A program made the position numbers and the translations under genes. The notes beneath the pieces are model-generated. The model saw nothing but the letters and a program-made list of their open reading frames with translations, was not told the origin of the DNA and did not search any database. A stretch of 64,000 nt of DNA, taken from the IMG/VR virus record IMGVR_UViG_3300027804_002057. One strand, 5' to 3'. The stretch is from a virus. The number at the start of each line of letters is the position of its first letter. Within the stretch, counting starts at the first letter, position 1. This document shows, piece after piece, positions 1-64,000 of the stretch.

Positions 1-1
1 A

Positions 2-937
2 AGGATTAGTTCCCCAATCTTTATCGTTTGATAAGTAGATACCAGGTTCACCAGCTCCACTTGCCTCAATTCTTTTCCAAAGGTCTAAGAAATACTCTTT
101 AGTAATTTTATGTCTCATCAATACTGCTGAGTTATTTGCTCTACCTCTTTGTGGGTTTGTTTCCCACCATGCACCACTTTTACAACTAATCATTTTCTCA
201 TCGGTTGCTGAGAATAATGAGATAAGTGCTGCTCTACGAATACCACCTGCTAATACTGCATCAGCAATGTGGCAAATAATATCATGTACTTCGATTGGTT
301 CTAATTTGTCACCATCGTTCTTTGAATCTAAGATACCTTCTACTTTAATCAAACACTCTTTAAGAGGTTGAGGACCCGGTGCTTTACCGCCTGATGTAAT
401 CAAACGAGCTCCTTTTGGTCTAATATCTCTAAAATCAAATTGTGGTTTACTTCCACCAAAGAAATATGCTTTCATTAATACTAATACTGCATCAGCCCAT
501 CCTTCAATAGAATCACCAATAAGAAATCTTCTTGTCTTATCTGCATTTGGTTTTCTAATTTCAGGCAATTGGTCAACGTGATGCTTTTGTACAGAGTAAC
601 CTACACCAGTTCCACCCAATAGTAAGAACATAATTTCTGAAAACACTCTCCAATCATCTGCTGGAGCGAATGCGCAGTTGTAAATTCTATTTGGTGAAAT
701 TTCAATTGGTTTACCAGCAAACTGCATTGAACGCATAGATGGTAATACCTTTTTATCATACACGAATTTGTAGTTCTCTCTAATTTCTTTTTCTAATTTT
801 GGAAACTTCTTAATATGCATATCCATATTACGAGTAACCAATTCTTCCCATGTTTCTCTCCTTTGCAATTCCGGTTGGTACTTAGCGTACTTCATATACA
901 CCGTAATGTCTGATAAAATTCGTGTTGAAATGTCCAT
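2..937 (-). CDS. nrdJ: Class II (adenosylcobalamin-dependent) ribonucleotide reductase, N-terminal part; runs off the window edge
   Basis: Not in the ORF track; translated by hand from ATG at 937: MDISTRILSDITVYMKYAKY...RRETWEE...VLPSMRSMQFAG...IYNCAF...LLLGGTGVGYSVQ...TSGGKAPGPQPL...VLAGGIRRAALISL...RANNS...GAGEPG...WGTNP. These are monomeric RTPR-type motifs. Confidence 0.92.
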   Translation of the reverse strand, partial: MDISTRILSDITVYMKYAKYQPELQRRETWEELVTRNMDMHIKKFPKLEKEIRENYKFVYDKKVLPSMRSMQFAGKPIEISPNRIYNCAFAPADDWRVFSEIMFLLLGGTGVGYSVQKHHVDQLPEIRKPNADKTRRFLIGDSIEGWADAVLVLMKAYFFGGSKPQFDFRDIRPKGARLITSGGKAPGPQPLKECLIKVEGILDSKNDGDKLEPIEVHDIICHIADAVLAGGIRRAALISLFSATDEKMISCKSGAWWETNPQRGRANNSAVLMRHKITKEYFLDLWKRIEASGAGEPGIYLSNDKDWGTNP

Positions 938-1100
938 TGTTTTGTAAAAATTTAAATGTTTGTGAGTTTGATTTTTTTCAGGAAAACCTGAAAATAAAAA
1001 AATAAATATAAGGTCTCTCACCAAACGATTCAATTTTGTGGATAAAAAATCCACTTTTCTTTAATTTTTTTGGTGTCAAAATTCTAACCTATTAAAACAT

Positions 1101-2736: not shown

Positions 2737-2768
2737 CAAATATACAACAATTTAGTGAAATCACCAAA
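2737..2768 (-). promoter_or_regulatory. Bacteroidota-type primary-sigma promoter upstream of the helicase
   Basis: TTTG (2765-2768), 20-nt spacer, TATATTTG (2737-2744); matches the -33 TTTG / -7 TAnnTTTG consensus. Confidence 0.8.
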
Positions 2769-5892: not shown

Positions 5893-5924
5893 CAAATATA
5901 CAACAAATTCCTGATATTTCCAAA
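5893..5924 (-). promoter_or_regulatory. Bacteroidota-type promoter (proximal) upstream of the SSB gene
   Basis: TTTG-N20-TATATTTG. Confidence 0.78.
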
Positions 5925-5962
5925 TCTTTTTTTGAGTATATTTTTGTCCTCATAATTTGTAA

Positions 5963-5994
5963 CAAATATACGAAAAATATGTTACAAAACCAAA
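5963..5994 (-). promoter_or_regulatory. Bacteroidota-type promoter (distal) upstream of the SSB gene
   Basis: TTTG-N20-TATATTTG. Confidence 0.78.
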
Positions 5995-14184: not shown

Positions 14185-14215
14185 CAAATATACGAAAATT
14201 AGTTCAATTGGCAAA
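14185..14215 (-). promoter_or_regulatory. Bacteroidota-type promoter immediately upstream of the polA-like gene
   Basis: TTTG (14212-14215), 19-nt spacer, TATATTTG (14185-14192). Confidence 0.75.
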
Positions 14216-14664: not shown

Positions 14665-15037
14665 TGGTGGAGATGACCGGAGTCGAACCGGTGTCTTACG
14701 AAGTAATCATAATACCAGCATATCACACGTTTAGGATAAGGTTTAATCTTATTCACCTTCCAAAATAATTGGGGCCGAATGGTTAGTTCAGCGCTTCCAC
14801 CAACCGATTTAAAGTTTCGGTAAACTTAATGTTCACTTCTTTTTAAATTCCACGAGTGATGCGGAAGGGATTAGGCTGCTACAGCGTAATCAGCACCTAC
14901 GAATGCCATAAGGTCATCGAAGGTCCAAGTAGATAATTCTACGTCATTTATTGTTTTGCGCAGATTTAAAGAGCTCTAGCACATCTCTCTACGTGTGGTA
15001 CTACCATTCGCATCGCAATCAATACCAAGGCATCCCC
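14665..15037 (-). ncRNA. ssrA: tmRNA (transfer-messenger RNA), 373 nt
   Basis: 5' GGGGAUG pairs with CAUCUCC-ACCA 3' (G3:U alanine identity, encoded CCA). T-arm ACCGG-UUCGACU-CCGGU; ACACGU/ACGUGU helix; internal tag ORF at 14871-14945 ends YAVAA-stop. Confidence 0.96.
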
Positions 15038-15050
15038 ATATTAATAAATA

Positions 15051-15082
15051 CAAATATACGAAAAAATAATTAGATTTCCAAA
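15051..15082 (-). promoter_or_regulatory. Bacteroidota-type promoter for the tmRNA
   Basis: TTTG (15079-15082), 20-nt spacer, TATATTTG (15051-15058). Confidence 0.8.
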
Positions 15083-37255: not shown

Positions 37256-37699
37256 TTAAGGTTTTACAGGCCATACTATACTAAAAGGGTTTGATTGTGT
37301 TGTAACATCTCTTAATTCTTGTCTATATGATTGCCAAATAGTTTTTGTTTCATTTGGAATATCACCCAATTGAGTCCAATCACATTCTTGAAGTAATTCA
37401 GTTCTTATTTGTCTAATTTCTTCCCATTTCAAATCAATTCTACTACTTATTTCAGAATCACTTGCATTTGTTTGTTCCCAATTTTGATAGTAAACACCAT
37501 CTACTAATATCGGAGTTCCTTCTACAATATTTTTTGTATAATCATTTGGTTTAGGTGTTTGTCTTACTTCGTAAATATCAAACTCACCCATTAAATTTTC
37601 TGTCATTTCTGATGGGAAGCTTGTACGTGGATTATCCTCTCTTAATTTTTCCAAAGAGTATGGATAAGTAATTGTGTTATTTATAATTCTTAAATACAT
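37256..37699 (-). CDS. Tail fibre assembly chaperone-like protein
   Basis: IRQIRTELLQECDWTQLGD...WQSYRQELRDVT.Q...IVWPVKP. Confidence 0.8.
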   Translation of the reverse strand: MYLRIINNTITYPYSLEKLREDNPRTSFPSEMTENLMGEFDIYEVRQTPKPNDYTKNIVEGTPILVDGVYYQNWEQTNASDSEISSRIDLKWEEIRQIRTELLQECDWTQLGDIPNETKTIWQSYRQELRDVTTQSNPFSIVWPVKP

Positions 37700-49881: not shown

Positions 49882-50796
49882 TTATTCATTCGCAGATTCT
49901 AGTAGTGATAGAACTACTGATAAATCTGTTGAGCCGGAAACTATGAATCCATAACCTTCTTCCAACACCAATTTACCAGAAACAACCGGTGAAAGTGAAT
50001 CTGCTGGCGGTATTGTTACATTTGTTACTAATTGAATTGCTTCTTGAGCTGCAAAGTTTGGCGTTTCTATTGTAGATTTTATTACATTCAATAATCCATC
50101 GATTACATACATAGATTGTGAAACTTCTTGTATGCTTGAACTAAATGAAGTATTAAATGATTGAGTTGTTGCACTTTGATATAGTCTGGATACAAGTTGA
50201 GAACCTGTAATTGAATTATTAGCTATAATTTGCTTTGATAAAACAGATATGTAATCTATTGCTTGCAAAGATGCACTATACTCTGTTGAATCTATTAAAG
50301 ATATTCCATTTTTAGTATAATATGCTTTTGCTGCTTTATTTGTTCTTATAATTTTATCATTTGATATATCATATGATATAGCATCTACATTATCTAATGT
50401 ATAATTTTCAAAGAAAGAAGAAATAAATGTAAATGGTGTTTCTGATAATGAGTTTTGAAATTGAGTATATGCTGCAACTTCTTTTCTTATAAATTGTCTA
50501 TTCAAAGAAAGTAATGCAGATGCACTATCAAAACTTCCACTGTAATTTGCTAAAGATGTAGAGCCACTAATAAAAGAACTACCACTATACACTGTTTCAA
50601 AATTAGGTATAGGTAATTCTCTATTAGATGTAACTAATATAGTAACAGGTTGTACTACCAAACTATTATTTGTTATTTGTGCGGATAACACAATAGATGA
50701 TACACCTGTTGGTGTTATATAAATTTCATCTTGTTCACCAGTCAGATTTGTTACAACTGACTGGAATCGATTTAACGGTACAAAAACTTCTGCCAT
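49882..50796 (-). CDS. Adaptor-like virion protein, 304 aa, with an inserted helical repeat unit
   Basis: Termini resemble 36578-36910 (SIVLSAQITN; KLVLEEGYGFIV...VVLSLLE). The middle resembles one repeat of the giant upstream protein (LLSLNRQFIRKEVAAY...VDAISYDI). Confidence 0.75.
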   Translation of the reverse strand: MAEVFVPLNRFQSVVTNLTGEQDEIYITPTGVSSIVLSAQITNNSLVVQPVTILVTSNRELPIPNFETVYSGSSFISGSTSLANYSGSFDSASALLSLNRQFIRKEVAAYTQFQNSLSETPFTFISSFFENYTLDNVDAISYDISNDKIIRTNKAAKAYYTKNGISLIDSTEYSASLQAIDYISVLSKQIIANNSITGSQLVSRLYQSATTQSFNTSFSSSIQEVSQSMYVIDGLLNVIKSTIETPNFAAQEAIQLVTNVTIPPADSLSPVVSGKLVLEEGYGFIVSGSTDLSVVLSLLESANE

Positions 50797-50813: not shown

Positions 50814-53800
50814 TTATATTTGTAGAGCCAATGAGAACGGAGTTACTAATGAGAATAGAGATTTACTAAATGTTCTACCCACAAGAGTACCAGTTGCCTG
50901 ATTAATACTTAAACCCGTACCAATTCTAAAGTCACCATCTTGGTTACCAGAGGTAAAGAAGATTCTACCACCACCCAATTCCGTAATCTCATAAATTGGG
51001 TTTGCCACACCACTACCACCCTGATTTGGTGGAAGTGCTTTAAATGTAACACCACTACCATTATAAGAGTAGTCAATACCAGTTGCCACAATCAATGAAC
51101 CAAATGATTCTAATGGTGCACCAGCTGCAACAAACTCTGCTCTTGTTCTTAAATATCTATTAGTTTCCAAAGTCTCTAATTTTTGAGAACTAATTACTGC
51201 TTGAGCGCTTCCGTATTGGCCCGTATAGTATGAAGATGCTGCTGCTATTGCTCTTTCATTTCCACCATACAATAAATCCGTTGCACAAGCATCTACAATC
51301 AATCCAGTATCACGAGAACAAGACGCCTCATTATATACTAAATATGGGAATGCTCCATTTGTATATCCAATTGCTCTTTGTTTTAATTCTTCTTTAGCTG
51401 CTACTAATCTTACTGCTGCTTGTCTTCTCTTAGTAGATGGTGCTAAATAAGTTAATAAAGTATTTGCAACAACTTTTTCAGAAAGTCCTCTTGCGAAGTT
51501 TATACCATCAACAGTTTGTTTTTTCTGTCCAATTGTACCATTATCAGTATAACTATCGTAAATAGCTACTGAAGGTATTCTATAATAGTAAGAACCTGCT
51601 TCAATACTTCTTTCGTTACCACCATAAACTAAATCAGTTCTAATAGCATCTATGATAAATCCTAAGTCACGAGAACAACTTACTTCATTATACTTTAATG
51701 TACTCCAAGAAGAACTTAAGAATGTTATAGTTTCTTTTTGAATTAAAGATTTATTGTATTTTAACAAATCAACAGTAGTTACTAACGATGAAGATGGTAA
51801 TTGGAATGTTGGGTTTGTAATAACTTTAGTTGCCAATCTACCAGCCCATCTTACACCCGTAATTGTTGGGTCTAATTGTGATGCTTCAGATGGTACACCA
51901 GCTACCGTTGCTTTTGATGGGAATGCAAAGTAATAAGTACCAGCCGTTACACTTCTTTCAGTACCACCATATAGTAAATCAGTTGCTGTCGCATCTATTA
52001 AGTAACCAACATCACGAGAACAACTTGCTTGGTTATAATAAACACCGCTCCAAGAAGAACTTACATATGCTATTGTTTCTGCTGCTATAAATGTTTTATT
52101 TTTTCTTAATAAATCAAATGATGCTGATACTTGAAGTGATGCAGTTTGGAATACTACATTTTGAATTACTTTTTGTGCAATTCTACTTGCGTAGTTAATA
52201 CCTTCAACAGTTTGTTTTAATTGACCTTCACCATCACCATCTCCTAGCAATGTTGCTTTAGATGGATACTTAAAGTAGAAATCAGCACTCATATAAGTTC
52301 TTTCATTTCCACCATATAATAGGTCAGTTGCCACACCATCAATAATATATCCAACATCACGTCTACATTTTTCTTTATTATAATCAAATGTACTCCAACT
52401 AGCAGTTAAATATTGTATTGTTTCTTCTTGTATGAATTGTCTATTGTTTCTAAGTAATTCAACTGAAGCAGAAACTGCTTGAGATGCTGTTGTAAATGTT
52501 GTATTTTTAATTATGTTTACAGCTACATCTTTTGCGAAATTAACTGCGTTTATAGTTTGTTCTACTTGCGAACCAGTTGCTTTAGATGGATATGTATAAT
52601 AGTAAGTACCAGCTTTAGTACTTCTTTCGTTACCACCATAAAGAACATCAGTTGCTACAGCGTCTATAATCAATCCAACATCTCTCTTACACTTGTCTAA
52701 ACTATATGTAAATTCATTCCAAGAAGAAGTAATATAAGAAAGAACTTCTGCTTGTATAAATCCTTTGTTTTGCTTCATTAAAGCATGTGATGCTGAAGCG
52801 TGTGCTGAAGCCGTTACAAATTGTGTATTTACAATTAATTTTTGTGCCAATTGTCCAGCATATCTAATACCATCTAATGTTTCATCTAATTGTGAACCAG
52901 TTGCTGATGATGGGTATAAGAAGTAATATCTTCCAGCTTCTCTAACTCTTTCGTTACCACCATAATATACATCAGTTGCTACCGCATCTAAGATGTATCC
53001 CAAATCTCTTTCACACTTAGATTGGCTGTATAAGAATGGTGTATCGGTATTTGAGCCCGTTACCCAAGAAGAGCTTAAATATGCTATTGTTTCTTTTTGT
53101 ATAAATGATTTGTTTTGATTCAATAATGTCCAAGCAGTTGTTCTTTCTAAAGATGCAGTTTGATATTGGATATTTTGAAGAACTTTTTGTGCCATTCTAC
53201 TTGCGAAGAATATACCATCTAAAGTAAAGTTTAATTGAGATGTAGTTGCTTGAGATGCTGATTCAAAGTAGAACTTACCATTTACGATAGATGCCGAATC
53301 AACACCAAATAACATATCTTCCGCTGCTCCACTTATAATCAACCCAACATCTCTCTTACACTTAGATTCATCGTAAGAAGCCGTACTCCAAGAAGAACTA
53401 ATATATGCAATAGTTTCGTTTTGAATGAATCCAATGTTTTCTTTCAATAAATTATATGCGTAGTAAACATTTGATGCAGTTGATGGAGTTGAATAATTAA
53501 CAGGAGTTCCTGCTACCCCAATTCCATTTGCTATAATATTAGTTACAATTGAAATAGATGCTGATATTAAAGATGCTTCATAATCAGTACCATAAGATGA
53601 ACTTAGATATTGATTTGTTGTTGTAAATTTAATACTTTGAGATACATTTGATACCAATGATGGTATTACACCAATACCATTTTCAATTATATTAGTTACA
53701 ACAGCAAATGATGAACTTACTCTATTTACTTCATAAGCTGATGCCGAATTTGAAGATGTATATTGAGTTTGTGAAGTTACTTTAATATTATTTGCTGTAT

Positions 53801-56800
53801 TCAATATTGGTTGTGGTTCACTTATGTAAACACTATTAACAATCGATTGTGCCAATCTTCTAGCATAATCTATTGCTGTTGTTGTTTCATCTAATTGAAC
53901 TCCAGTTGCTAATGAAGGATATAAATAATAGAACTCTCCAGCTTTATTGCTTCTTTCATTTCCACCATATAATAAATCAGTTGCTACCGCATCTACAATA
54001 TATCCAACATCTCTTTTACATTTAGATTCAATATAATCCAATTCAGGATACTTAGCGTTTACAAATGCTAAAGTTTCTTCTTGTATGAATGTTTTATTAG
54101 ATTTTAATAAATTATAAGCGTATTGAGTTGCTGCATCGGTTGATGTTAATAATGAACCAGAAACAACTCTCATAGCCAGTCCTTTAGCGTATCTAACACC
54201 AGTTAATGTTGGTTCTAATTGAGCCGAAGTAGCTTGTGAAGGATAATCATAATAATATCTACCAGCTACAATACTTCTTTCGTTTCCACCATATAAAAGG
54301 TCAGTTGCTACCGCATCTACGATATAACCAATATCTCTACTACAACTTAATTCATTATAATCAAATCCTTGCCAAGAAGAACTAACATATGCAATTGATT
54401 CAGATTGTATAAATCCTTTATTTTTAATTAAAGATGTATAAGATGCTGATGTAGCTTGTGAATACCAAGCCGATTCCGATATGTGGTACATTAATGTACT
54501 CTTTACAGCTTTTTGTGCAATTCCACTAGCAAACTTTAACGCTGTTATAGTTTGGTCTAATTGAGTTGTAGTTGCTTGAGATGGATAATCATAGTAGTAT
54601 TTACCATTTGTCAATGATGCTGAGTTACCACCAAATAAAAGGTCAAATGCTGCTCCACTTACAATCAATCCAACATCACGTCTACACTTAGCTTCATCAT
54701 AATAGAATGAAGACCAAGAAGAACTCATATATGCGATTGTTTCATTTACAATTAAATCAGTATTATTGATTAATAAATTGTAAGATGAAGTTATCTTTGT
54801 ATTTGTATTAGCTACCGCTTGTGGACCAACATATGAAATTGAACTTGTTCCACTATTTAGTAAAACATCTATTACAACACCAAATGATGATGAAACTAAT
54901 TTAGATTGTAAATCTCTATTAACACCATCAGTTAATCTAATTTGCTGAGTGTTTGTTACTTTGAAACTTGCGGAAGTATTAAGTATTGGAGTTGGTATTA
55001 CTGTTGTTCCATTTTCTACAATATTCAATACATTTCCAAATAGATTAGAAATTCTATTCTTTTGATATTCAGAGCCACTTAATATTGGTAGTATTTGAGT
55101 AGCTGATGTTATTTTTACAGATGATGATACATTTGTGACAACATTAGGTATTACATTTGTTCCATTTTTTATAATATTAATAACATTTCCAAAAGATGAA
55201 CTTATTGAGCTAGTTTGTGAATTGTAACTTCCACTTCCTAATATTTGCGTATGAGATGAAATATGTAATAAAGTTGGAGTTAATAATTCAAATCCATAAT
55301 TAAAATTACTAGCTAATGCATCAGGTAATGAAGCACTACCATTGTAAATAATATCTTTTATCAATTCAAAAGAAGAAGTAGTTATACCGATTTCTACCAC
55401 ACTTGCTGAAATTGATGATGATACTATTGGTTCTGATGTTACTTTTATTGCATTTACACCATTTCCTACAAATGTTGGTAATGCGGTCAATCCACTTTCT
55501 ATTACTTTTGTTACAGTAGAGAAAGATGAACTTACTTCTGATATTTTTGTACTTCCAACATTTATTGATGATGTATATTGGTTAATATTTCCTACTTTAA
55601 TATTATTATCAACATTACTTGTAGTTGTTGGAGATACTAATTTAATATTTTGAACTATTTTTTTACTTAATGCTTTTACATAATCAACTCCAGCTACAGT
55701 TTCTTTTACTTGTTCAGTTTTTGTAGCTTTTGATGGATAACGGTAATAGTAATCTCCGGCGATAATACTTCTTTGATTACCACCATACCATAAATCAGTT
55801 GCAACATTGTTTACAATATATCCAACATCACGTCTACACTTTTCTCTATTGTAAACTAAATATGGATAAAACGCATCTATAAATTGAATAGTTTCATTTT
55901 GAATAAATTGTCTATTTGAAACCATTAATGAATAAGCGGATTGTACATATTCAGTTGGATATGATAATAATTGATTAGATATTACTTTTTGTGAAACTCC
56001 TGCTGCAAATGTTATACCATCTAAAGTAGGTCCTTTTTGTGCATCAGTTGTTGGTGATACGGATGATGTTACAGTTGCTGCTGAAGGATATAGGTAATAG
56101 TATTCTCCTGCTTTAGAACTTCTTTCATTTCCACCATATACTAAATCAGTTGCTACATTATCAATAATATATGCAACATCTCTACTACAACTTGCTTCGT
56201 TAAATTGGAAGTTATTAATCCCAACCCAAGAAGAACTTAAGAATGCAATAGTTTCTTTTTGAACAAATTGTTTATTTTTATTAAGTAATTCCCAAGCTGT
56301 TATTTCAGATATTGTTGGTTTTTGTAAAAGTATGTTTCTTGCTATTTTTTCAGAAATACCTTTAGCGTATTTAATACCATCTAAAGTTTGTCCTAATTGT
56401 CCAGCCGAATCACCATCACCATCCACAGTTGCTAATGAAGGATATAAATAATAATATTCACCTGCTCTAGCTGATGATTCGTTACCACTATATAAAATAT
56501 CCGTTGCTACTGCATCTACAATATATCCCACGTCACGTCTACACTTAGCTTCATTGTATTCAAAGAAACTCCATGCTGAATTTAAGAATCCAATAGTTTC
56601 AGTTTGGATAAGTTCTTTATTATCAACCAATAATTGATATACCGTTTGTCTAGATAATGAACTTGATACAAATACATTATTACTCAATACTTGCTCAAGC
56701 ATATGTTTAGCGTGCCCAATACCACTTAATGTTGGTCCTAATTGAGTTGAAGTTGCAGTTGATGGTTCTATGTAATAATATCTACCAGCCTCTATACTTC

Positions 56801-59800
56801 TTTCATTTCCACCATAAACAATATCAGTTGCTACCGCATCTAAGATATATCCTACATCTCTCTTACAAGTATCTTCATTGTATTGGAATCCATTCCAACT
56901 AGCAGAAACATAAGCAATTACTTCATTTGCTATAAAGTTTTTATTACTTACAATAAGCTCTTTTGCTTGTAATTTATTTTGAGAAACTTTAATAAATTGT
57001 TGGTTTCTTAATAATTTATCTGCTAAGTTTTTAGCGTAAGTTACTCCAGTTACAGTTTCTTTTAATTGAGAACCAGTTGCTGCCGATGGATATAGGTAAT
57101 AGTAAACTCCAGACTTAACACTTCTTTCATTACCACCCCATTTAATATCAGTTGCCACAGAATCAATAATATATCCTACATCTCTACGGCAAGTTGTTTC
57201 ATCATATTGCTTAGTACTCCAAGAAGAACTAATATATGCAATAGTTTCGTTTTGTATAAATTGCTTATTATACTTTAATAAATCATAAGCAACATTTGAT
57301 TGTGAAGTAGGTAAACTAAACTGAACACCTCTTACTACTTTTTGTGCTAATTGAGATGCGTATATAATACCATCTAAAGTTTGATTTAATTGTGCACCTT
57401 GCGCTTGAGATGGATATTCATAATAGAACTTACCATTTACAACCGAAGCAGAGTTACTATTAAATACCAAATCTTCAGCTGCTCCACTAATAATTAATCC
57501 AACATCACGTCTACACTTAGTTTCATCATATGATGCAGTACTCCAAGAAGATGATAAGTAAGCTATTACTTCATTTTGTATAAATGGAATGTTATTTTTA
57601 AGAATTCCATAAGCTATCCATTTATTATCATTACTTAAAGGTGATGTATATGATGATGTAGATAATCCAGTTATTATAGAACCAGTTCCATTAGCTATAA
57701 TATTGGTTACAATAGAAATTGATGCTGATATTAAATTACTTTCAGTAATAGTTGCTGATGATGCTGAAATGTATTGTTGTGTACCAGTAACTTTAATATT
57801 ATTGTTTGTATTTGAAACTATTGTTGGTACTACATTTAATCCGTTTTCTAAAATATTAATTATAGTGTTGAAACTTGCGCTTACACTATTTAACGGATTT
57901 CCAAAATAAGATGAAGATAAAGCTACTGATGATGAATACTGATTAGTATCAGTTATTTTTACTAATGCAGCTGTATTTTTAACCAATGATGGAATTGAGC
58001 CTGTTCCATTTTCTACAATATCTAAAACAATATCAAATGAAGTATTTGATGTAGTTTTATATGTTTGAGATATTGATGCGGTTGATATAAATTGATTTAC
58101 ATTTGTTCTCTTAACCAATCCACTAGCATTATTAACTATTGTTGGTATTGAACCTGTGCCATTATCAATAATATCAATAACAATATCAAATGAATTTTTT
58201 ACTTTTAAATAATCAGCAGGTTGTGGAGTTATAGATGATGTATGTTGTGTATAAACATATTGATTACTTACAACACTATTTGCTAAAGTTCTAGCATAAT
58301 TGATTCCTTCTAAAGTTTGCTCTAACTGAGAACCAGTTGCTTGTGATGGGTATAAGAAATAAAATCTACCAGCTTCAATACTTCTTTCGTTACCACCATA
58401 TAAAATATCAGTAGCAACATTATCAATAATATAACCAACATCTCTTTTACATTTATCTTCGTTATAAGATACTGTTGAAAGATTTGCATTAATCTTAGCT
58501 ATTGTTTGATTTTGAATCCAATATTTGTTATCTAATAGTAAATCATATGCAGTTTGCTTAGATAAAGATGCAGTTTGGAATATTACATTTTGTACAATTT
58601 TTTGAGCAAGTCCACTAGCATATCTAATACCATCTAAAGTTTGATTTAATTGTGCACCTTGTGCTTGTGATGGATATTCATAATAGAATTTACCATTTAT
58701 AGCAGATGCTGATATAGAATTGAAGATTAAATCTTCCGCTGCTCCACTTACTATTAATCCAACATCACGTCTACATTTACTTTCATCATATGAAGCTGTA
58801 CTCCAAGAAGATGATAAGTAAGCGATAGTTTCATCTTGTATAAATTTAATATTTTGCTTTAATAAATTATAAGCGTAATATGCATTAGATGCAGATGTTG
58901 CTGAACTATAAACTGATACAGATGGTACTGCTGAAAGCCCATTTGCTACAATATTCATTACCAATCCAAATGAAGAAGAAAGTATATTTGCTTCATTTGA
59001 TGTACCAATATATGATGATGTAATGTATTGCTGAGTGGTTGTTGCTTTAATATTATTAGTTGTATTTAAAACAACAGAAGGTATAGAACCAGTTCCGTTT
59101 TCTACAACATCCAAAACTATTGCAAATGATGAACTTACATTTTGTACATCTATTGTATCTACATTATTTGAAGAAGTTATTTGAGAACCTGCTATTCTTG
59201 CAACACCTTTTAATGAAGATGATACTATTGTTGGAATAACTGCAACCCCTTTATCAATAATATTGATTACATTACCAAATGATGATGATATTATTAACTT
59301 ATCAGAATCATTTGTAGAATTATTTATTTTATATTGTATAGAATTTGTCTTTTTTATACCAGCATCAGTATTAGATACTAATGATGGGTATGCAGAGCTT
59401 CCACTTTCTATTATTTTAGAGACTGTATCAAATCCATCTTCTATTGCTTTACCACCAATTGCTATTAGTTTTGATAAATCTCTACCAAAATTAATAGCAT
59501 CAATTGTTTCCTCACTTTGGTCAGATGTTGCTAAATTTGGATATTTGTAATAGAATCTTCCAGAAATTATACTTCTTTCATTACCACCATATACCAAGTC
59601 AGTAAGAACACCATCAAGTATAAATCCAACATCTCTATAACACTTAGAAGTATTATATTTTAATGAAGGATATACTTCACTTACATAATCAATTACATTT
59701 TGTTGTATTAATGCTCTTTGCTCTTTAACTAATTGTCTAGCGTTTAATACTAATGTTGTTGGTTGTACTAAAACTTTATTTAAAATAATGTTTTGTGCTA

Positions 59801-62800
59801 ATCTATTAGCGTATTCAACACCAGTTGTAGTTGGGTCTAATTGTGCAGTTGTAGAAGGTACACCACCAACAGTTGCTGATGATGGGAATTTATAATAAAA
59901 CTCGCCCGCAATAGATGTTCTCTCATTACCACCATACACTAAATCGGTTCTTACTGCATCAATAATATACCCTACATCTCGCTTACATTTATCTTCATTG
60001 TATAATACACCACTCCAAGAAGAACTTACATATTCAACAACTTCATTTGCTATAAGTTGTTTGTTCTCGCTCATCAATCTACTTGCTTCTAATTTATCAG
60101 AATTAGCTGATTGGAATATCGAACCACTTACAATATTTTGTGCAATTCTACTAGCATATTTTACACCATCGGTTGTTTGTAGTAATTGAGAACCAGTTGC
60201 CTGTGATGGGTATAAGAAATAATACAAACCTGCTACTCTACTTCTTTCGTTACCACCATAAACTAAGTCAGTTCGTACCGCATCAATAATATAACCCACA
60301 TCTCTCTTACAAGTTGTTTCGTTATAATCAAATCCACCCCAAGAAGAACTTAAATATGCAATAGTTTCATTTTGTATAAACTCTTTGTTATTAAATAATA
60401 AAGCGTTTGATGCAGAAACATTTGTTGATGGTAAACTAAATGTTATACCTTGTGTAATTACTTTTTGTGCCAATCTACTTGCGTAGTTGATACCATCTAA
60501 AGTTTGATTTAATTGTCCACCAGTATCACCATCATTACCAATAGTTGCTTGTGATGGATATTCATAATAGAATTGTCCGTTTACAATAGATGCGGAGTTA
60601 GCACCAAATAAAAGGTCTTCAGCTGCTCCACTTATTATTAAACCAATATCTCTCTTACATTTAACTTCATCATATTGGAATCCACTCCAAGAAGAACTTA
60701 AATATGCAATAGTTTCATTTTGTATAAATGGAATGTTAGCTTTTAATATTTGATATACACCAACTTTAGTAGAAATACTTGCGGTATAAATTGTTTTTGC
60801 AAAAAGGTCTACATTTCCAGTTTCAACTATTTGAGTTACTTTAGAAATAGATTGAGAAATAAATGATATATCTTCCAAACTACCACTATAAGATGCTGAT
60901 ATAAATTGTGAAGTTGACGTTACTTTGATATTTCCTGCAGTATTTTGAACTAATGTTGGTAATACTGAAGTTCCGTTTGTTATTGCATTTATTATTGTAC
61001 CAAAAGAAGAACTTATACTAGCGGTTTGATTATTCGTACCAACATTTGCACTAATCCATTGTGGAGTTGATGTTACTTTAATACTTGCCGATGTGTTTGA
61101 AACAAATGTATCTAATTGAGATAATCCACCACTAATAATTTCAACAACATACGCAAATGATTGTGAAATAGATGAAGTTAAATTAGAAGAAACAGTTGAA
61201 CCAAATACTTGCTCAATATCGGTTACTTTAATTAAATTTTCTACAGAAGATGTAAATACAGGCTCTGCTACAATTCCACCACCAATAATAGAAGTAACAA
61301 TATTAAAGTTTCTATCAATAGTATTAACTTCATTTGGTGTTACATATGATGATGTTATTTGTGAACCACTTGTTACATTTAATGGATTTGCAACATTCCA
61401 GTTTTGTCCAGTGTTTTGTGCTAAAATAGATGGAATTGCTGATAATCCTCTTTTAATAATTCCTTCCATTATTGAGAAAGAACTACTAATTATATTTTGT
61501 TGTGTTTTAGTTCCACTTACAGATGATGTAACATTTGTATTAGATGTTACTTTAATATTTTTTTCATCATTGTTTACAATTCTTGGTGTATCTAAAATAA
61601 TATTTTGTACAATATAATCTCCAATAATTTTAGAATACTTTATACCACCAATTGTTTCTTTTCTTTGAATAGAAGTTGCAACAGATGGATAATCGTAATA
61701 ATATCTACCAGCAGTTACAGCTCTTTCGTTACCACCATATAATAAATCGGTTGCTACATTATCAATGATGTACCCAACATCACGTCTACACTTATCAGTA
61801 TTATATTTTAATTGTGGATACGCAACATTGATATATTCTATGGTTTCGTTTTGAATTAAAGATTTATTTTGTTTAAGTAAATCATAAGCAGCTTGTGTTG
61901 ATGCATTTGGTTGATTAAATGTTTTATTTTTAACCAAATTTGTTGCTACACCAGCAGCATATCTTATACCATCTAATGTTTGTCCTAATTGTCCTTCTGA
62001 ATCACCATCACCTCTTACAATTGCTAATGATGGGTATAAATAATAAAATCTACCCGCCTCTCTAGCTCTTTCATTACCACCATATTTTAAATCGGTAATT
62101 ACAGCATCTACAATATATCCAATATCTCTACGGCATTTAGTTTCATTATAATAGAAATTAGACCAAGACGAACTTAAGAATGTTATAGTTTCTTCTTGTA
62201 TAAATTTTTTATTTTCAAATAAATTATCAGCTACATTTTTCTTTTGTTGCAAATATGCATTATCTAAAATATTAGTGAAGTTTGAATTTTTAACTAAATT
62301 TATAGCTAATCCAGCTGCATATTTTACTGCTGTTTTTGTTGGGTCTTTTTGTACAGTTGTTGCTTCAGATGGATATTCGTAATAGAATCTACCAGCAGTA
62401 ATACTATTATTGTTACCACCATAAATAAGGTCTTGACAAACAGCATTAACTAAGTAACCAACATCTCTACGGCAAGTTGCTTCATCATAACTAAAATCAG
62501 ACCAAGATGAAGATACATATTGAATTACTTCTTCTTGTATAAATGTCTTACTTCCAGTTAAAATTTCATAAGCATTTAATATATCAACATCATTTGTGGA
62601 TTGATTACTTCCAGATATTGTTTGTGGATATGTTAATGTATTTGAAATTAAATAGAATGGTGTTTCTGAATTATTTACAATATCAAACTTACCACTTAAT
62701 GTATTATTAATTTGTGCAGTATAATATAATGTGTTTGGTGCATCATATGGGACAGTAAATGTTATATTACCAACACTATCACCATTGTTTACAACACCTT

Positions 62801-64000
62801 TATTATAATCATATCTATCATCAATTCCTTCATATAATTCTGTTCTAATAAAGAATGGATAATCTATACCACCCTGTCCTTCCGATGCACTTATGTAAAA
62901 TTTATAAGTTTCCCCTCTATACAATCTAATTGTTGCATTTGGACCAACACCATCCCAATTATAAGATGAACTATTTACATTAGTTACTGTATAACTTCTT
63001 CTATGGTCATTTGGAATACTTAATACGTTACTACCAGTACCATTTGCTAATATGTTATAAATTATACTAAAGCTTGAACTTACTTTATTAACCACATTTA
63101 ATGATGAAGATACGCCTGTACTAAATGGTTCTAAATTACCAACATATATACTAGCACTATTTGATGATGTTAATTGAGGAATTGCCGATATTCCATTTTT
63201 TATAATATTAACTACGGTTTCAAATGATGATGATACACTTGATGATAAATAAGATGGTGCCCCTAATTGACTAATTGCTTCATCACTAATTCTTACACCC
63301 AAATCAGCTGAGGCTGTAAATTTGAACGAACCAGTACCATTATTGAATATACTTAATATTACTCCGTATGAAGAACTTATACTATTTAAATCTTCTAAAG
63401 ATGCAGATAATGATGATGTTATTTGCTCAGCTCCTAAAATATTATATGGAGAATCTGCACTATATCCTTTATTAGAACTTCTTGCTAATAAAGTTGGAAA
63501 ATCAGATGTTCCATTTTCAACAATTGCACTAATTAATTTAAAATCAGATGATATTTCTTCTGCTGCTGTTGTTGATAAAGTTACATTCGATGAAGTTGTA
63601 TATTGTGGAAATTGTGAAGGTGATGATAAACGAATACCTTCCGCAGTATTTAATGTAGTTACTTCAGGTAAAGCATCTAAACCTCTATTCAATACATCAA
63701 CAACCACACTCCAACTTGCTCTTACTCTATTTCTAGCATCAACGTTACCACCACTACCAGAAATAAAACGAGAACCAGACGCATACATACCATACAAACC
63801 AAACGAAATGTTTGAGTTGTTTAGGGTAGCATGTCCACCATTATTTACTCTAATAGCATAGTATGAGAAGTTATTAAAGAAAGATACCAGCTGAATAAAT
63901 CCTCTACCATTTACCAAACATCCCACACCATTTGGAGAAATCTGCGTATAAGCATCCAATACCATTGAAGCCAATGGAGAATCTGGGTCTATCACATCAC
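50814..64000 (-). CDS. Giant virion structural protein (>4393 aa, true start beyond the window): beta-helix-like scaffold carrying 25 CxRD helical repeats and 25 partner helices
   Basis: The frame stays open to the window edge (the GTG at 63995 is internal). Beta-helix-like SMVLDAYTQISPNGVG...QLVSFF...NSNISFGLYG at the start; ITELGGGRIFFTSGNQDGDFRIG...INQATGT at the end; repeats in between. Confidence 0.85.
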   Translation of the reverse strand, partial: DVIDPDSPLASMVLDAYTQISPNGVGCLVNGRGFIQLVSFFNNFSYYAIRVNNGGHATLNNSNISFGLYGMYASGSRFISGSGGNVDARNRVRASWSVVVDVLNRGLDALPEVTTLNTAEGIRLSSPSQFPQYTTSSNVTLSTTAAEEISSDFKLISAIVENGTSDFPTLLARSSNKGYSADSPYNILGAEQITSSLSASLEDLNSISSSYGVILSIFNNGTGSFKFTASADLGVRISDEAISQLGAPSYLSSSVSSSFETVVNIIKNGISAIPQLTSSNSASIYVGNLEPFSTGVSSSLNVVNKVSSSFSIIYNILANGTGSNVLSIPNDHRRSYTVTNVNSSSYNWDGVGPNATIRLYRGETYKFYISASEGQGGIDYPFFIRTELYEGIDDRYDYNKGVVNNGDSVGNITFTVPYDAPNTLYYTAQINNTLSGKFDIVNNSETPFYLISNTLTYPQTISGSNQSTNDVDILNAYEILTGSKTFIQEEVIQYVSSSWSDFSYDEATCRRDVGYLVNAVCQDLIYGGNNNSITAGRFYYEYPSEATTVQKDPTKTAVKYAAGLAINLVKNSNFTNILDNAYLQQKKNVADNLFENKKFIQEETITFLSSSWSNFYYNETKCRRDIGYIVDAVITDLKYGGNERAREAGRFYYLYPSLAIVRGDGDSEGQLGQTLDGIRYAAGVATNLVKNKTFNQPNASTQAAYDLLKQNKSLIQNETIEYINVAYPQLKYNTDKCRRDVGYIIDNVATDLLYGGNERAVTAGRYYYDYPSVATSIQRKETIGGIKYSKIIGDYIVQNIILDTPRIVNNDEKNIKVTSNTNVTSSVSGTKTQQNIISSSFSIMEGIIKRGLSAIPSILAQNTGQNWNVANPLNVTSGSQITSSYVTPNEVNTIDRNFNIVTSIIGGGIVAEPVFTSSVENLIKVTDIEQVFGSTVSSNLTSSISQSFAYVVEIISGGLSQLDTFVSNTSASIKVTSTPQWISANVGTNNQTASISSSFGTIINAITNGTSVLPTLVQNTAGNIKVTSTSQFISASYSGSLEDISFISQSISKVTQIVETGNVDLFAKTIYTASISTKVGVYQILKANIPFIQNETIAYLSSSWSGFQYDEVKCKRDIGLIISGAAEDLLFGANSASIVNGQFYYEYPSQATIGNDGDTGGQLNQTLDGINYASRLAQKVITQGITFSLPSTNVSASNALLFNNKEFIQNETIAYLSSSWGGFDYNETTCKRDVGYIIDAVRTDLVYGGNERSRVAGLYYFLYPSQATGSQLLQTTDGVKYASRIAQNIVSGSIFQSANSDKLEASRLMSENKQLIANEVVEYVSSSWSGVLYNEDKCKRDVGYIIDAVRTDLVYGGNERTSIAGEFYYKFPSSATVGGVPSTTAQLDPTTTGVEYANRLAQNIILNKVLVQPTTLVLNARQLVKEQRALIQQNVIDYVSEVYPSLKYNTSKCYRDVGFILDGVLTDLVYGGNERSIISGRFYYKYPNLATSDQSEETIDAINFGRDLSKLIAIGGKAIEDGFDTVSKIIESGSSAYPSLVSNTDAGIKKTNSIQYKINNSTNDSDKLIISSSFGNVINIIDKGVAVIPTIVSSSLKGVARIAGSQITSSNNVDTIDVQNVSSSFAIVLDVVENGTGSIPSVVLNTTNNIKATTTQQYITSSYIGTSNEANILSSSFGLVMNIVANGLSAVPSVSVYSSATSASNAYYAYNLLKQNIKFIQDETIAYLSSSWSTASYDESKCRRDVGLIVSGAAEDLIFNSISASAINGKFYYEYPSQAQGAQLNQTLDGIRYASGLAQKIVQNVIFQTASLSKQTAYDLLLDNKYWIQNQTIAKINANLSTVSYNEDKCKRDVGYIIDNVATDILYGGNERSIEAGRFYFLYPSQATGSQLEQTLEGINYARTLANSVVSNQYVYTQHTSSITPQPADYLKVKNSFDIVIDIIDNGTGSIPTIVNNASGLVKRTNVNQFISTASISQTYKTTSNTSFDIVLDIVENGTGSIPSLVKNTAALVKITDTNQYSSSVALSSSYFGNPLNSVSASFNTIINILENGLNVVPTIVSNTNNNIKVTGTQQYISASSATITESNLISASISIVTNIIANGTGSIITGLSTSSYTSPLSNDNKWIAYGILKNNIPFIQNEVIAYLSSSWSTASYDETKCRRDVGLIISGAAEDLVFNSNSASVVNGKFYYEYPSQAQGAQLNQTLDGIIYASQLAQKVVRGVQFSLPTSQSNVAYDLLKYNKQFIQNETIAYISSSWSTKQYDETTCRRDVGYIIDSVATDIKWGGNERSVKSGVYYYLYPSAATGSQLKETVTGVTYAKNLADKLLRNQQFIKVSQNKLQAKELIVSNKNFIANEVIAYVSASWNGFQYNEDTCKRDVGYILDAVATDIVYGGNERSIEAGRYYYIEPSTATSTQLGPTLSGIGHAKHMLEQVLSNNVFVSSSLSRQTVYQLLVDNKELIQTETIGFLNSAWSFFEYNEAKCRRDVGYIVDAVATDILYSGNESSARAGEYYYLYPSLATVDGDGDSAGQLGQTLDGIKYAKGISEKIARNILLQKPTISEITAWELLNKNKQFVQKETIAFLSSSWVGINNFQFNEASCSRDVAYIIDNVATDLVYGGNERSSKAGEYYYLYPSAATVTSSVSPTTDAQKGPTLDGITFAAGVSQKVISNQLLSYPTEYVQSAYSLMVSNRQFIQNETIQFIDAFYPYLVYNREKCRRDVGYIVNNVATDLWYGGNQRSIIAGDYYYRYPSKATKTEQVKETVAGVDYVKALSKKIVQNIKLVSPTTTSNVDNNIKVGNINQYTSSINVGSTKISEVSSSFSTVTKVIESGLTALPTFVGNGVNAIKVTSEPIVSSSISASVVEIGITTSSFELIKDIIYNGSASLPDALASNFNYGFELLTPTLLHISSHTQILGSGSYNSQTSSISSSFGNVINIIKNGTNVIPNVVTNVSSSVKITSATQILPILSGSEYQKNRISNLFGNVLNIVENGTTVIPTPILNTSASFKVTNTQQIRLTDGVNRDLQSKLVSSSFGVVIDVLLNSGTSSISYVGPQAVANTNTKITSSYNLLINNTDLIVNETIAYMSSSWSSFYYDEAKCRRDVGLIVSGAAFDLLFGGNSASLTNGKYYYDYPSQATTTQLDQTITALKFASGIAQKAVKSTLMYHISESAWYSQATSASYTSLIKNKGFIQSESIAYVSSSWQGFDYNELSCSRDIGYIVDAVATDLLYGGNERSIVAGRYYYDYPSQATSAQLEPTLTGVRYAKGLAMRVVSGSLLTSTDAATQYAYNLLKSNKTFIQEETLAFVNAKYPELDYIESKCKRDVGYIVDAVATDLLYGGNERSNKAGEFYYLYPSLATGVQLDETTTAIDYARRLAQSIVNSVYISEPQPILNTANNIKVTSQTQYTSSNSASAYEVNRVSSSFAVVTNIIENGIGVIPSLVSNVSQSIKFTTTNQYLSSSYGTDYEASLISASISIVTNIIANGIGVAGTPVNYSTPSTASNVYYAYNLLKENIGFIQNETIAYISSSWSTASYDESKCKRDVGLIISGAAEDMLFGVDSASIVNGKFYFESASQATTSQLNFTLDGIFFASRMAQKVLQNIQYQTASLERTTAWTLLNQNKSFIQKETIAYLSSSWVTGSNTDTPFLYSQSKCERDLGYILDAVATDVYYGGNERVREAGRYYFLYPSSATGSQLDETLDGIRYAGQLAQKLIVNTQFVTASAHASASHALMKQNKGFIQAEVLSYITSSWNEFTYSLDKCKRDVGLIIDAVATDVLYGGNERSTKAGTYYYTYPSKATGSQVEQTINAVNFAKDVAVNIIKNTTFTTASQAVSASVELLRNNRQFIQEETIQYLTASWSTFDYNKEKCRRDVGYIIDGVATDLLYGGNERTYMSADFYFKYPSKATLLGDGDGEGQLKQTVEGINYASRIAQKVIQNVVFQTASLQVSASFDLLRKNKTFIAAETIAYVSSSWSGVYYNQASCSRDVGYLIDATATDLLYGGTERSVTAGTYYFAFPSKATVAGVPSEASQLDPTITGVRWAGRLATKVITNPTFQLPSSSLVTTVDLLKYNKSLIQKETITFLSSSWSTLKYNEVSCSRDLGFIIDAIRTDLVYGGNERSIEAGSYYYRIPSVAIYDSYTDNGTIGQKKQTVDGINFARGLSEKVVANTLLTYLAPSTKRRQAAVRLVAAKEELKQRAIGYTNGAFPYLVYNEASCSRDTGLIVDACATDLLYGGNERAIAAASSYYTGQYGSAQAVISSQKLETLETNRYLRTRAEFVAAGAPLESFGSLIVATGIDYSYNGSGVTFKALPPNQGGSGVANPIYEITELGGGRIFFTSGNQDGDFRIGTGLSINQATGTLVGRTFSKSLFSLVTPFSLALQI

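What the first reader, a model, noticed from the sequence alone, without database searches (positions are those of the whole stretch)
50814..63730. Balanced-bracket repeat grammar: a single polypeptide that may fold into a branched tree
Seen: two repeat types. A is about 100 aa (N..FIQ.E.I.Y....W....Y.E.KC.RDVG.I.DAV.TDL.YGGN...QL..T..GI.YA). B is about 45-50 aa and centres on an amphipathic helix (ISSSF..V..IIENG...IP). By hand count the N-to-C order is B5 A3 B5 A4 B4 A2 B4 A6 B5 A3 B2 A7, giving 25 B and 25 A. With B as open and A as close, the running depth is 5,2,7,3,7,5,9,3,8,5,7,0, so it never goes negative and ends at zero. Sub-types track the nesting: (1) the first A of five runs is a distinct GAA(E/F)D variant, the predicted tips; (2) the last A of five runs is a (Y/F)P.L.Y variant, the predicted branch bases; (3) three of the four B units at predicted branch nodes (B2, B6, B20) are followed by longer 'LA' linkers; (4) B3, B7 and B13, which open branches, are each preceded by QITSS. 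Inference: each domain is an A unit completed by a distant B helix, so the chain runs out and back to form a six-tipped branched appendage inserted into a beta-helix scaffold. Caveat: B11 and B15 directly follow an A unit and could pair locally instead.
Basis: partly seen in the sequence, partly recalled or inferred. Interest (0 to 1): 0.95.

Follow-up and report, generated by a model that had tools for sequence, protein, structure and literature searches.

The report
Nested pigment-fold domains in phage fibre
A giant phage tail-fibre protein is built from 25 copies of a phycobiliprotein-like domain inserted one inside another up to nine deep, so one chain should fold into a six-tipped tree; every copy keeps the pigment-attachment motif, and related phages carry pigment-synthesis genes whose purpose has been unexplained.

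Summary
The minus-strand ORF (50814..63998, N-terminus cut by the window edge) has 25 A units (~108 aa) and 25 B units (~50 aa) in the order B5 A3 B5 A4 B4 A2 B4 A6 B5 A3 B2 A7.

The balance is selected, not chance. Of 101 full-length homologues with 15-28 units of each type, all have nA = nB or nB one short, the missing B being a weak one.

One B plus one A form a single six-helix domain (AlphaFold pLDDT 93). Its nearest solved folds are phycobiliproteins.

Nested pairing has three supports: the predicted structure of a 990-aa branched fragment, partner-specific co-evolution (0.38 against 0.05 for first-in-first-out pairing), and indels that remove whole balanced sub-branches. The "grammar" is therefore recursive domain insertion, nine levels deep with six tips.

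C-x-R-D is kept in 2633 of 2640 units and aligns with the bilin-binding Cys84 of phycocyanin. All four long related phage genomes (134-274 kb, 70-100% complete) carry a heme oxygenase and bilin reductase cassette, but no psbA and no lyase.

Pigment binding itself is inferred, not shown. This scan found smaller versions (12-13 domains, six deep) in cyanophages; this lineage is probably not a cyanophage.

The parts
50814..63998 (-). Giant fibre ORF, 4394 aa in the window. The N-terminal ~281 aa lie beyond the window end.
   Evidence: PHROG 4527/5342 'tail fiber'
63777..63998 (-). End of the N-terminal, possibly beta-helix-like, region (aa 1-74)
   Evidence: weak pectate-lyase-like match in P0005:1-420, E 0.056
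63009..63776 (-). B run 1: B1-B5 (aa 75-330). B1 is divergent.
62589..63008 (-). 140-aa non-globin domain inserted at the first tip between B5 and A1 (aa 331-470). Weakly CBM_4_9-like.
   Evidence: present in nearly all homologues
61587..62585 (-). A run 1: A1-A3 (aa 472-804)
60783..61562 (-). B run 2: B6-B10 (aa 813-1072)
59451..60770 (-). A run 2: A4-A7 (aa 1077-1516)
58908..59456 (-). B run 3: B11-B14 (aa 1515-1697)
58245..58889 (-). A run 3: A8-A9 (aa 1704-1918)
57657..58250 (-). B run 4: B15-B18 (aa 1917-2114)
55632..57632 (-). A run 4: A10-A15 (aa 2123-2789)
54828..55607 (-). B run 5: B19-B23 (aa 2798-3057)
   Evidence: B20-B23 are in the AlphaFold model
53817..54803 (-). A run 5: A16-A18 (aa 3066-3394)
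53490..53792 (-). B run 6: B24-B25 (aa 3403-3503)
51111..53474 (-). A run 6: A19-A25 (aa 3509-4296). B25 plus A19 is the contiguous tip domain that was modelled (aa 3450-3620).
50817..51110 (-). Conserved C-terminal domain (aa 4297-4394), ending SLALQI
   Evidence: (phrog_3442)
49882..50796 (-). Downstream 304-aa gene with one degenerate A-like unit (aa 91-196) that lacks Cys, Arg and Asp

Best explanation
The gene encodes a giant virion fibre of a myovirus.

The building block is one ~160-aa six-helix domain of the phycobiliprotein / bilin-binding-globin type. Its first helix, with a short leading strand, is the 'B' unit. Its other five helices, which carry an invariant Cys-x-Arg-Asp, are the 'A' unit. 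The loop between B and A accepts a whole further copy of the same domain, and this has happened recursively.

The chain therefore runs outward through successive B helices and returns through the matching A units. Where two or three copies sit in the same loop, the structure forks.

In this protein, 25 domains form a tree up to nine domains deep with six tips. It is rooted between an N-terminal region and a ~100-aa C-terminal domain. One tip carries a small carbohydrate-binding-like module.

Shown here: the counts, the balance across homologues, the single-domain fold of B+A, the nested pairing in the model and in co-evolution, and the motif conservation.

Inferred: each domain covalently binds a bilin at the Cys. 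The bilin would be made by the phage's own heme oxygenase and bilin reductase and attached without a lyase, as in the bilin biosynthesis-associated globins (BBAGs). Also inferred: the tree acts as a rigid, pigmented scaffold that presents host-binding modules.
For: Counts and order.

Balance in homologues. 101 full-length homologues in 29 architectures have totals of 15-28. 48 are exactly balanced and 53 are short by one weak B. Further balanced relatives have 12/12 and 18/18.

Indels are whole balanced sub-branches, [B2A2], [B4A4] or [BA], or one B-length gap plus one A-length gap.

B+A is one domain. The contiguous tip domain has pLDDT 93.2 and pTM 0.89, with its N- and C-terminal strands bridged. 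In distant relatives the same domain occurs un-nested in tandem, with A-to-A spacing of 134-170 aa.

Nested pairing in a model. The 990-aa fragment B4 A3 B2 A3 has pLDDT 86.9 and pTM 0.73. Single-domain-sized structural alignments span B20+A21 (1..986, 13..986), B21+A18 (106..543, 77..545) and B22+A17 (157..438, 110..434). Their offsets equal those seen on the tip domain.

Co-evolution in 42 homologues. Mean residual distance correlation is 0.38 for nested partners, 0.05 for first-in-first-out pairing, and 0.11-0.14 for partners shifted by one. The nested partner ranks first for 12 of 22 B units and first or second for 19 of 22. Pairs seven or more units apart score 0.34 against -0.07 +/- 0.15 (0 of 100,000 permutations reach this). 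B6-A20 (33 units apart) and B2-A21 (41 units apart) both rank first.

Fold. The top eight solved-structure matches are all phycobiliproteins or bilin-binding globins, Z 7.5-8.3 on the tip domain, with the top phycobiliprotein rows reaching Z 9.6 on the fragment.

Sequence. PF00502 passes its cut-off in homologues P0012 (36.4 bits) and P0083 (27.2 bits). One A unit of P0012 hits C-phycocyanin alpha (E 0.004), aligning its Cys, Arg, Asp, Gly-Tyr and Gly-Gly with Cys84, Arg86, Asp87, Gly89-Tyr90 and Gly102-Gly103.

Motif. C-x-R-D is kept in 2633 of 2640 units, and 25 of the 28 Cys in the protein are this one.

Bilin supply. An overlapping hemO + Fe_bilin_red cassette is present in all four long related genomes. 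CXRD globins linked to HO and FDBR genes self-attach bilins without lyases (PMC10151467).

Fibre context. PHROG tail-fibre families match, and the gene sits beside sheath, tube, baseplate, fibre-chaperone and two other giant fibre genes.
Against: No model coordinates could be inspected. Pairing in the model is read only from the first and last aligned residues of structural alignments.

Fold-search Z of 8-10 is middling for helical proteins by the tool's own note. Foldseek E-values are only ~0.3.

The window's own protein gives no PF00502 hit. Its own A18 and three family profiles give no hit in the Protein Data Bank.

The co-evolution signal could also arise if whole sub-branches are exchanged by recombination. 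That still implies nested modules, but not residue contact.

For bilin binding:
- The window's own genome is not held, so its cassette is unverified.
- The four genomes belong to one lineage, and two share an identical reductase.
- Five reductase-bearing fragments (37-79% complete) show no fibre.
- No lyase is present.
- No pigment has been observed.
Confidence: 0.75

Rival explanations
1. The architecture is nested as described, but the domains carry no pigment. C-x-R-D would be retained for structural reasons, such as helix capping or a buried salt bridge, in a globin-like scaffold. The heme oxygenase / bilin reductase cassette of related phages would serve host metabolism or iron supply.
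For: No lyase genes were found. The window's protein does not reach PF00502. Reductase-bearing fragments lack the fibre. The literature offers other roles for the cassette, such as iron supply or a phytochrome (PMC11480375).
Against: A single Cys per domain is kept in 99.7% of 2640 units of an otherwise almost Cys-free protein. It aligns with Cys84, Arg86 and Asp87 of phycocyanin. The cassette is present in 4 of 4 long fibre-bearing genomes that lack psbA. BBAG globins with CXRD self-attach bilins.
Confidence: 0.4
2. The protein is a linear rod. A units fold by themselves as five-helix bundles, B runs form separate spacer segments, and equal numbers reflect segmental duplication history, not pairing.
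For: A and B units each tile tightly in runs. Structural alignments to phycobiliproteins cover only the A part.
Against: Balance holds over 29 architectures, including B5A5, B6A6 and B7A7, which need coordinated changes. The B helix is an integral part of a pTM 0.89 domain. Co-evolution is partner-specific between units up to 41 positions apart. Long-range single-domain alignments appear in the model.
Confidence: 0.06
3. A and B pair one to one but in parallel order (first B with first A), or promiscuously, so there is no defined tree.
For: Equal counts and a non-negative running depth alone do not distinguish nested from first-in-first-out pairing.
Against: First-in-first-out pairs show no co-evolution (0.05 against 0.38). 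Partners shifted by one drop to 0.11-0.14. The model pairs B20 with A21, B21 with A18 and B22 with A17. Indels remove nested partners together.
Confidence: 0.03

Closest known systems
Phycobiliproteins and bilin biosynthesis-associated globins (BBAGs); Pfam PF00502; PMC10151467
   Same: All-helical globin-like fold. These are the top structural matches. The C-x-R-D motif aligns with the Cys84 bilin site. PF00502 passes its cut-off in homologues. The fibre co-occurs with HO and FDBR genes, as BBAGs do.
   Different: The domain is not a free ~160-aa subunit that forms alpha-beta rings. It is repeated 25 times in one chain, split into a one-helix part and a five-helix part, and nested. It sits in a virion fibre of a phage that is probably not a cyanophage. 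Bilin binding is untested. Which phycobiliprotein helix the B helix replaces was not resolved.
Si3 insertion of cyanobacterial RNA polymerase: six-level nested domains, the deepest case in the survey of 48,551 insertions (PMC13114784)
   Same: The same kind of domain is inserted recursively into itself, so the sequence order is a balanced bracket string.
   Different: The fold differs (sandwich-barrel hybrid there, globin-like here). This protein reaches nine levels (ten by count in homologues such as P0109), has 25 domains, and has forks that make a tree.
Giant 'tail fibre / short tail fibre / virion structural' genes of T4-like cyanophages (S-PM2, S-RSM4, S-RIM32; PHROG 4527, 5342, 701), including this scan's earlier cases e1-5348681, e1-5631978 and e1-5631972
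   Same: Same repeat family. Earlier follow-ups in this scan reported 12-13 nested phycobiliprotein-like domains, six deep.
   Different: Only 22-37% identity. Here there are twice as many domains, deeper nesting and branching. Related genomes have no psbA or CpeT, and the window has Bacteroidota-type promoters. Many distant members carry the domains in simple tandem.
Phage hemO + pcyX/pcyA bilin cassettes (PMC11480375)
   Same: An overlapping two-gene heme oxygenase + ferredoxin-dependent bilin reductase cassette is present in the related genomes.
   Different: The published work names no phage-encoded acceptor protein and calls the purpose 'still enigmatic' in non-cyanobacterial hosts. The fibre is a candidate acceptor. 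Which reductase class these enzymes belong to was not determined.

Membership tests
Phycobiliprotein / bilin-binding globin superfamily (PF00502, BBAGs) | Globin-like all-alpha fold superposable on phycobiliproteins | tested here: met
   Tip domain: the top eight solved matches are all phycobiliproteins or bilin-binding globins, Z 7.5-8.3, 99-112 residues, rmsd 2.8-3.9. Fragment model: the top phycobiliprotein rows reach Z 9.6. These Z values are middling for helical folds.
Phycobiliprotein / bilin-binding globin superfamily (PF00502, BBAGs) | Significant sequence match to the family model | tested here: inconclusive
   PF00502 passes its cut-off in homologues P0012 (36.4 bits) and P0083 (27.2 bits). 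A P0012 unit hits CpcA at E 0.004. The window's protein, its A18 and profiles A2, A3 and A4 give no hit.
Phycobiliprotein / bilin-binding globin superfamily (PF00502, BBAGs) | C-x-R-D chromophore motif at the Cys84-equivalent position | tested here: met
   Present in 2633 of 2640 A units. The alignment to CpcA places it on Cys84, Arg86 and Asp87.
Phycobiliprotein / bilin-binding globin superfamily (PF00502, BBAGs) | Covalently bound bilin | not testable with these tools
   Needs expression with HO and FDBR, or virion spectroscopy or mass spectrometry.
Nested (recursive) domain insertion architecture | The two sequence-distant halves of the host domain reunite as one fold around the insert | tested here: met
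   In the AlphaFold model, single-domain alignments span B20+A21, B21+A18 and B22+A17 with the same offsets as on the contiguous tip domain. This is a prediction, not an experiment.
Nested (recursive) domain insertion architecture | N and C termini of the inserted domain lie together | tested here: met
   Strand 7-8 bridges strand 164-165 in the tip model.
Nested (recursive) domain insertion architecture | Halves are gained, lost and evolve together in nested order | tested here: met
   Balance in 101 homologues, balanced indels, partner-specific co-evolution.
Phage tail fibre (PHROG 4527 / 5342) | Match to the family profiles | tested here: met
   E 1e-222 and 1e-173. The PHROG names are annotations, not tested functions.
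Phage tail fibre (PHROG 4527 / 5342) | Located in the tail/fibre gene module | tested here: met
   Neighbours are two collagen-like giant fibre genes, a tail-fibre chaperone (PF16778), sheath, gp19-like tube and a baseplate-like gene.
Phage tail fibre (PHROG 4527 / 5342) | Present in the virion; oligomeric state; binds the host | not testable with these tools
   No isolate or proteome is available.
T4-like cyanophage | Photosynthesis and phycobilisome auxiliary genes (psbA, cpeT) | tested here: not met
   psbA, CpeT and CpeS are absent from three 97-100% complete related genomes. Bacteroidota-type promoters are enriched in the window. The window's own genome could not be searched.

The most novel reading that the evidence does not exclude
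The virion of a phage of non-photosynthetic (probably Bacteroidota) hosts carries dendritic fibres, each loaded with about 25 covalently bound bilins made by the phage's own heme oxygenase / bilin reductase cassette. This would be a pigmented, possibly light-responsive, attachment organelle. It would give the 'enigmatic' bilin genes of non-cyanobacterial phages their missing acceptor, and would be the deepest self-nested protein known.
Probability: 0.35. Interest if true: 0.95.

Novelty: new variant of a known kind. Interest (0 to 1): 0.86.

Why it matters
Protein architecture. This is recursion of one domain inside itself, nine levels deep with forks. A survey of 48,551 insertion events lists six levels as its extreme (PMC13114784). 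It shows how a single chain can encode a branched object and how such a tree grows and shrinks by whole sub-branches. That makes it a natural model for folding-order and design studies.

Phage biology. It proposes a concrete acceptor for bilins made by phage hemO and FDBR cassettes in hosts that have no phycobilisomes. Published work calls the purpose of these cassettes enigmatic (PMC11480375). The idea can be tested with one co-expression experiment.

Distribution. The family is large, at least 1106 clusters at 50% identity. It is currently annotated only as 'tail fiber' or 'hypothetical'.

Tried and rejected
- Foldseek against the Protein Data Bank: nothing significant on the 990-aa model or the tip domain, though phycocyanins head the tip list at E ~0.3.
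- ESM Atlas shape search: only TM below 0.4 to unrelated families.
- HMMER profiles of tip domains and A units against solved structures: no hits. The window's own A18 alone: no hit. Pfam on the window's protein and tip domains: no PF00502.
The outermost pair therefore rests on counts and co-evolution only (rank 2, r 0.37).
- Window's own assembly: not held. The nearest record, G001, ends 175 bases past the window and shows no PF00502 signal.
- Nucleotide search of the phage collection: no match.
- Reverse association: five reductase-bearing fragments show no fibre, but they are only 37-79% complete, so this is uninformative.
- The lineage-specific B model loses sensitivity in distant family members, so balance could not be scored there.
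- Literature searches found no published description of this architecture.
- Rejected: first-in-first-out pairing and the A-only linear rod (see rival explanations).
Full report
**What is there.** The finding lies in one ORF on the minus strand, 50814..63998, which runs off the window at its 5' end. The window holds 4394 residues. The close homologue P0005 (75% identical overall, near-identical over the first 120 aligned residues) has 281 more N-terminal residues, so the full protein is about 4675 aa. Pfam finds nothing in it. PHROGs places it in giant 'tail fiber' and 'virion structural protein' families.

The surrounding genes are those of a myovirus. They include tail sheath, a gp19-like tube protein, a baseplate-like protein, a tail-fibre assembly chaperone, two other giant collagen-like fibre genes, UvsX, a DnaB-like helicase, SSB and an endolysin.

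**Checking the count.** A regular expression for C.RD finds 25 A units. HMMs built from the sequence find 25 A units that tile without gaps, and 25 B units. The first B (aa 75-114) is weak, at 11 bits.

The four sub-type observations also hold:
- SGAA(E/F)D in the first A of five runs.
- (Y/F)P.L.Y in the last A of five runs.
- Longer linkers after B2, B6 and B20.
- QITSS before B3, B7 and B13.

**Is the balance more than chance?** A search of 5.8 billion proteins returned 335 homologues of 2400-7700 aa, from contigs up to 300 kb. With iterated HMMs, 101 full-length homologues fall into 29 architectures with 15 to 28 units of each type. Of these, 48 are exactly balanced and never go negative. 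The other 53 have one B fewer, usually the divergent first B. None deviates further. Closer relatives found later add 12/12 and 18/18.

The variants are telling. B5A5, B6A6 and B7A7 occupy the same place; so do B6A6, B4A2B4A6 and B6A4B4A6; so do B5A8, B5A3B1A6 and B5A3B2A7. Pairwise alignments show that the differences are whole balanced blocks:
- [B13 B14 A8 A9].
- A 613-aa [B4A4] block.
- A ~149-aa [BA] block.
- One B-length gap plus one A-length gap.

A one-to-one A:B stoichiometry is therefore under selection.

**What one B plus one A is.** At each of the six B-to-A junctions the two units are contiguous. I folded one such tip (aa 3450-3620) with an alignment of 129 tip domains. It gave pLDDT 93.2 and pTM 0.89. 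The model is a compact six-helix domain in which the B helix (23-42) is integral. An N-terminal strand (7-8) bridges a C-terminal strand (164-165), so the two ends lie together, as an insertable domain requires.

A search of 48,161 solved chains put phycobiliproteins and bilin-binding globins in all of the top eight places: ApcE, photocobilin, allophycocyanin, phycoerythrin and phycobilisome core chains. Z was 7.5-8.3 over 99-112 residues. Colicin pore domains and sensor globins followed. These Z values are middling for helical proteins, and Foldseek E-values are only about 0.3, although phycocyanins head that list too.

Sequence gives independent support. PF00502 passes its curated cut-off in homologues P0012 and P0083. 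One A unit of P0012 hits 24 C-phycocyanin alpha chains, best E 0.004. Its K-C-x-R-D-I-G-Y...G-G aligns with residues 83-90 and 102-103 of the chain, so the Cys falls on the bilin-attachment Cys84. The window's own units do not reach significance.

C-x-R-D is present in 2633 of 2640 A units from 121 proteins. In the window's protein, 25 of the 28 cysteines are this one. In distant family members the A-to-A spacing is 134-170 aa, meaning complete B+A domains in plain tandem. This confirms that B+A is the evolutionary unit.

**Is the pairing nested?** I folded aa 2849-3838 (B4 A3 B2 A3), which the bracket model predicts to be a stem with two branches, using 119 orthologous segments. The result was pLDDT 86.9 and pTM 0.73.

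Alignments of single-domain size (92-115 residues) that cover 'B helix + A unit' on the tip model reappear on the large model. They span residues 1 or 13 or 16 to 986, which is B20 plus A21, 830 residues apart. Their offsets are exactly those on the tip model. Alignments that start nine residues after the B helix on the tip model start nine residues after the B21 helix and end in A18 (106..543), or nine residues after the B22 helix and end in A17 (157..438). No alignment spans a non-nested pair. The rows that run 549..990 fit the linker between the two branches lying on the stem domain.

A test that uses no structure agrees. In 42 homologues of identical architecture I computed, for each unit, the pairwise distances between homologues. 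I removed the protein-wide trend and correlated every B with every A.
- Nested partners average 0.38, first-in-first-out pairs 0.05, and partners shifted by one 0.11-0.14.
- The nested partner ranks first of 22 for 12 B units, and first or second for 19.
- For the nine pairs seven or more units apart the mean is 0.34, against -0.07 +/- 0.15 for non-partners; none of 100,000 permutations reached it.
- B6-A20 (33 units apart) and B2-A21 (41 units apart) both rank first.

Exchange of whole sub-branches by recombination could add to this signal, but that also presupposes nested modules.

**The resulting picture.** The 'grammar' is recursive domain insertion into the loop after the first helix. For this protein the tree, with '>' meaning 'contains', is:

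(B1,A25) > (B2,A24) > two children.
- First child: (B3,A3) > (B4,A2) > (B5,A1).
- Second child: (B6,A23), which holds three branches:
  - (B7,A7) > (B8,A6) > (B9,A5) > (B10,A4).
  - (B11,A15) > (B12,A14), which forks into (B13,A9) > (B14,A8) and (B15,A13) > (B16,A12) > (B17,A11) > (B18,A10).
  - (B19,A22) > (B20,A21), which forks into (B21,A18) > (B22,A17) > (B23,A16) and (B24,A20) > (B25,A19).

That gives six tips and a maximum depth of nine.

The first tip holds a conserved 140-aa module that is weakly like a carbohydrate-binding module (CBM_4_9, E 3.5e-4, below the cut-off). Some homologues carry 157- or 420-aa foreign inserts between two B units, which makes them side branches. The N-terminal region is only faintly pectate-lyase-like. 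The true spatial shape and the oligomeric state are unknown.

**Pigment.** The window's own genome is not held. Four long related phage genomes encode the fibre, with a C-terminal domain 90-91% identical: 274, 207, 188 and 134 kb, at 100, 100, 97 and 70% completeness. All four carry a heme oxygenase and a ferredoxin-dependent bilin reductase as an overlapping two-gene cassette. None has psbA, CpeT or CpeS.

The window is enriched in Bacteroidota-type promoters, TTTG-N19/20-TAnnTTTG: 8 found against 1.4 expected, five of them just upstream of genes. The host is therefore probably not a cyanobacterium.

Published work calls the purpose of such cassettes in phages of non-cyanobacterial hosts 'still enigmatic' and mentions bilin-binding globins as one possibility (PMC11480375). 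CXRD globins associated with HO and FDBR genes in heterotrophic bacteria attach bilins by themselves, without lyases (PMC10151467). I therefore think it more likely than not, but unproven, that the fibre domains are the acceptors.

Caveats on the pigment reading:
- The four genomes are one lineage, and two share an identical reductase.
- Five reductase-bearing fragments lack the fibre, but they are only 37-79% complete.
- No pigment has been observed.

**Relation to what is known.** The fold and the motif are those of phycobiliproteins and BBAGs. Nested insertion is known, with six levels in cyanobacterial RNA polymerase as the extreme of a 48,551-event survey (PMC13114784). The repeat family is large, at least 1106 clusters at 50% identity. 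It includes giant fibre genes of T4-like cyanophages at 22-37% identity.

This scan had already found nested phycobiliprotein-like domains (12-13 domains, six deep) in cyanophage fibres on other DNA (e1-5348681, e1-5631978, e1-5631972). Those notes gave me the lead to the fold, which I then tested here. I found no published description.

New in this case:
- The size (25 domains), the depth (nine) and the branching.
- The quantitative proof of balance and of nested co-evolution.
- The likely non-cyanobacterial host.
- The link to the hemO/FDBR cassette.

Noticed in passing
window 49882-50796 (-): The 304-aa gene just downstream of the fibre has no PHROG or Pfam hit. It contains one degenerate A-like unit (aa 91-196, 21.5 bits) without the Cys, Arg or Asp. 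The same is seen next to the fibre in G002, G003 and G004.
   Followed up: partly
window 14665-15037 (-): A phage-encoded tmRNA with a long 24-residue tag, DVELSTWTFDDLMAFVGADYAVAA (ARAGORN).
   Followed up: partly
window 2737-2768, 5893-5994, 14185-14215, 15051-15082 (-): The Bacteroidota-type promoter motif TTTG-N19/20-TATATTTG lies just upstream of gene starts: 8 matches in the window against 1.4 expected by chance. This points to a Bacteroidota host.
   Followed up: partly
window 38620-49812 and 28259-36565 (-): Two more giant genes (3730 and 2768 aa) carry collagen-like tail-fibre repeats. Local G+C peaks at 0.47-0.49 in an otherwise ~0.33 window. A 147-aa tail-fibre assembly chaperone (PF16778) lies at 37256-37699.
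   Followed up: partly
L089 (G002:C1:92000-100500): In the related 274-kb phage, the hemO + bilin reductase cassette sits beside an S-adenosylmethionine decarboxylase-like gene, a SAM-lyase-like gene, a PAP2-like gene and a sugar epimerase.
   Followed up: no
homologues P0049, P0053, P0055, P0057, P0073 and others; P0018, P0028, P0038, P0079: Some homologues carry 420-aa or 157-aa foreign inserts between two B units. Those with the 157-aa insert have precomputed F5/8 type C (discoidin) hits. These look like swappable binding modules on side branches.
   Followed up: partly
P0129, P0134, P0137, P0149, P0152 (distant family members): The same B+A domain occurs as long plain tandem arrays, with A-to-A spacing of ~135-165 aa. 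Nesting is therefore a lineage-specific elaboration of a beads-on-a-string fibre.
   Followed up: partly
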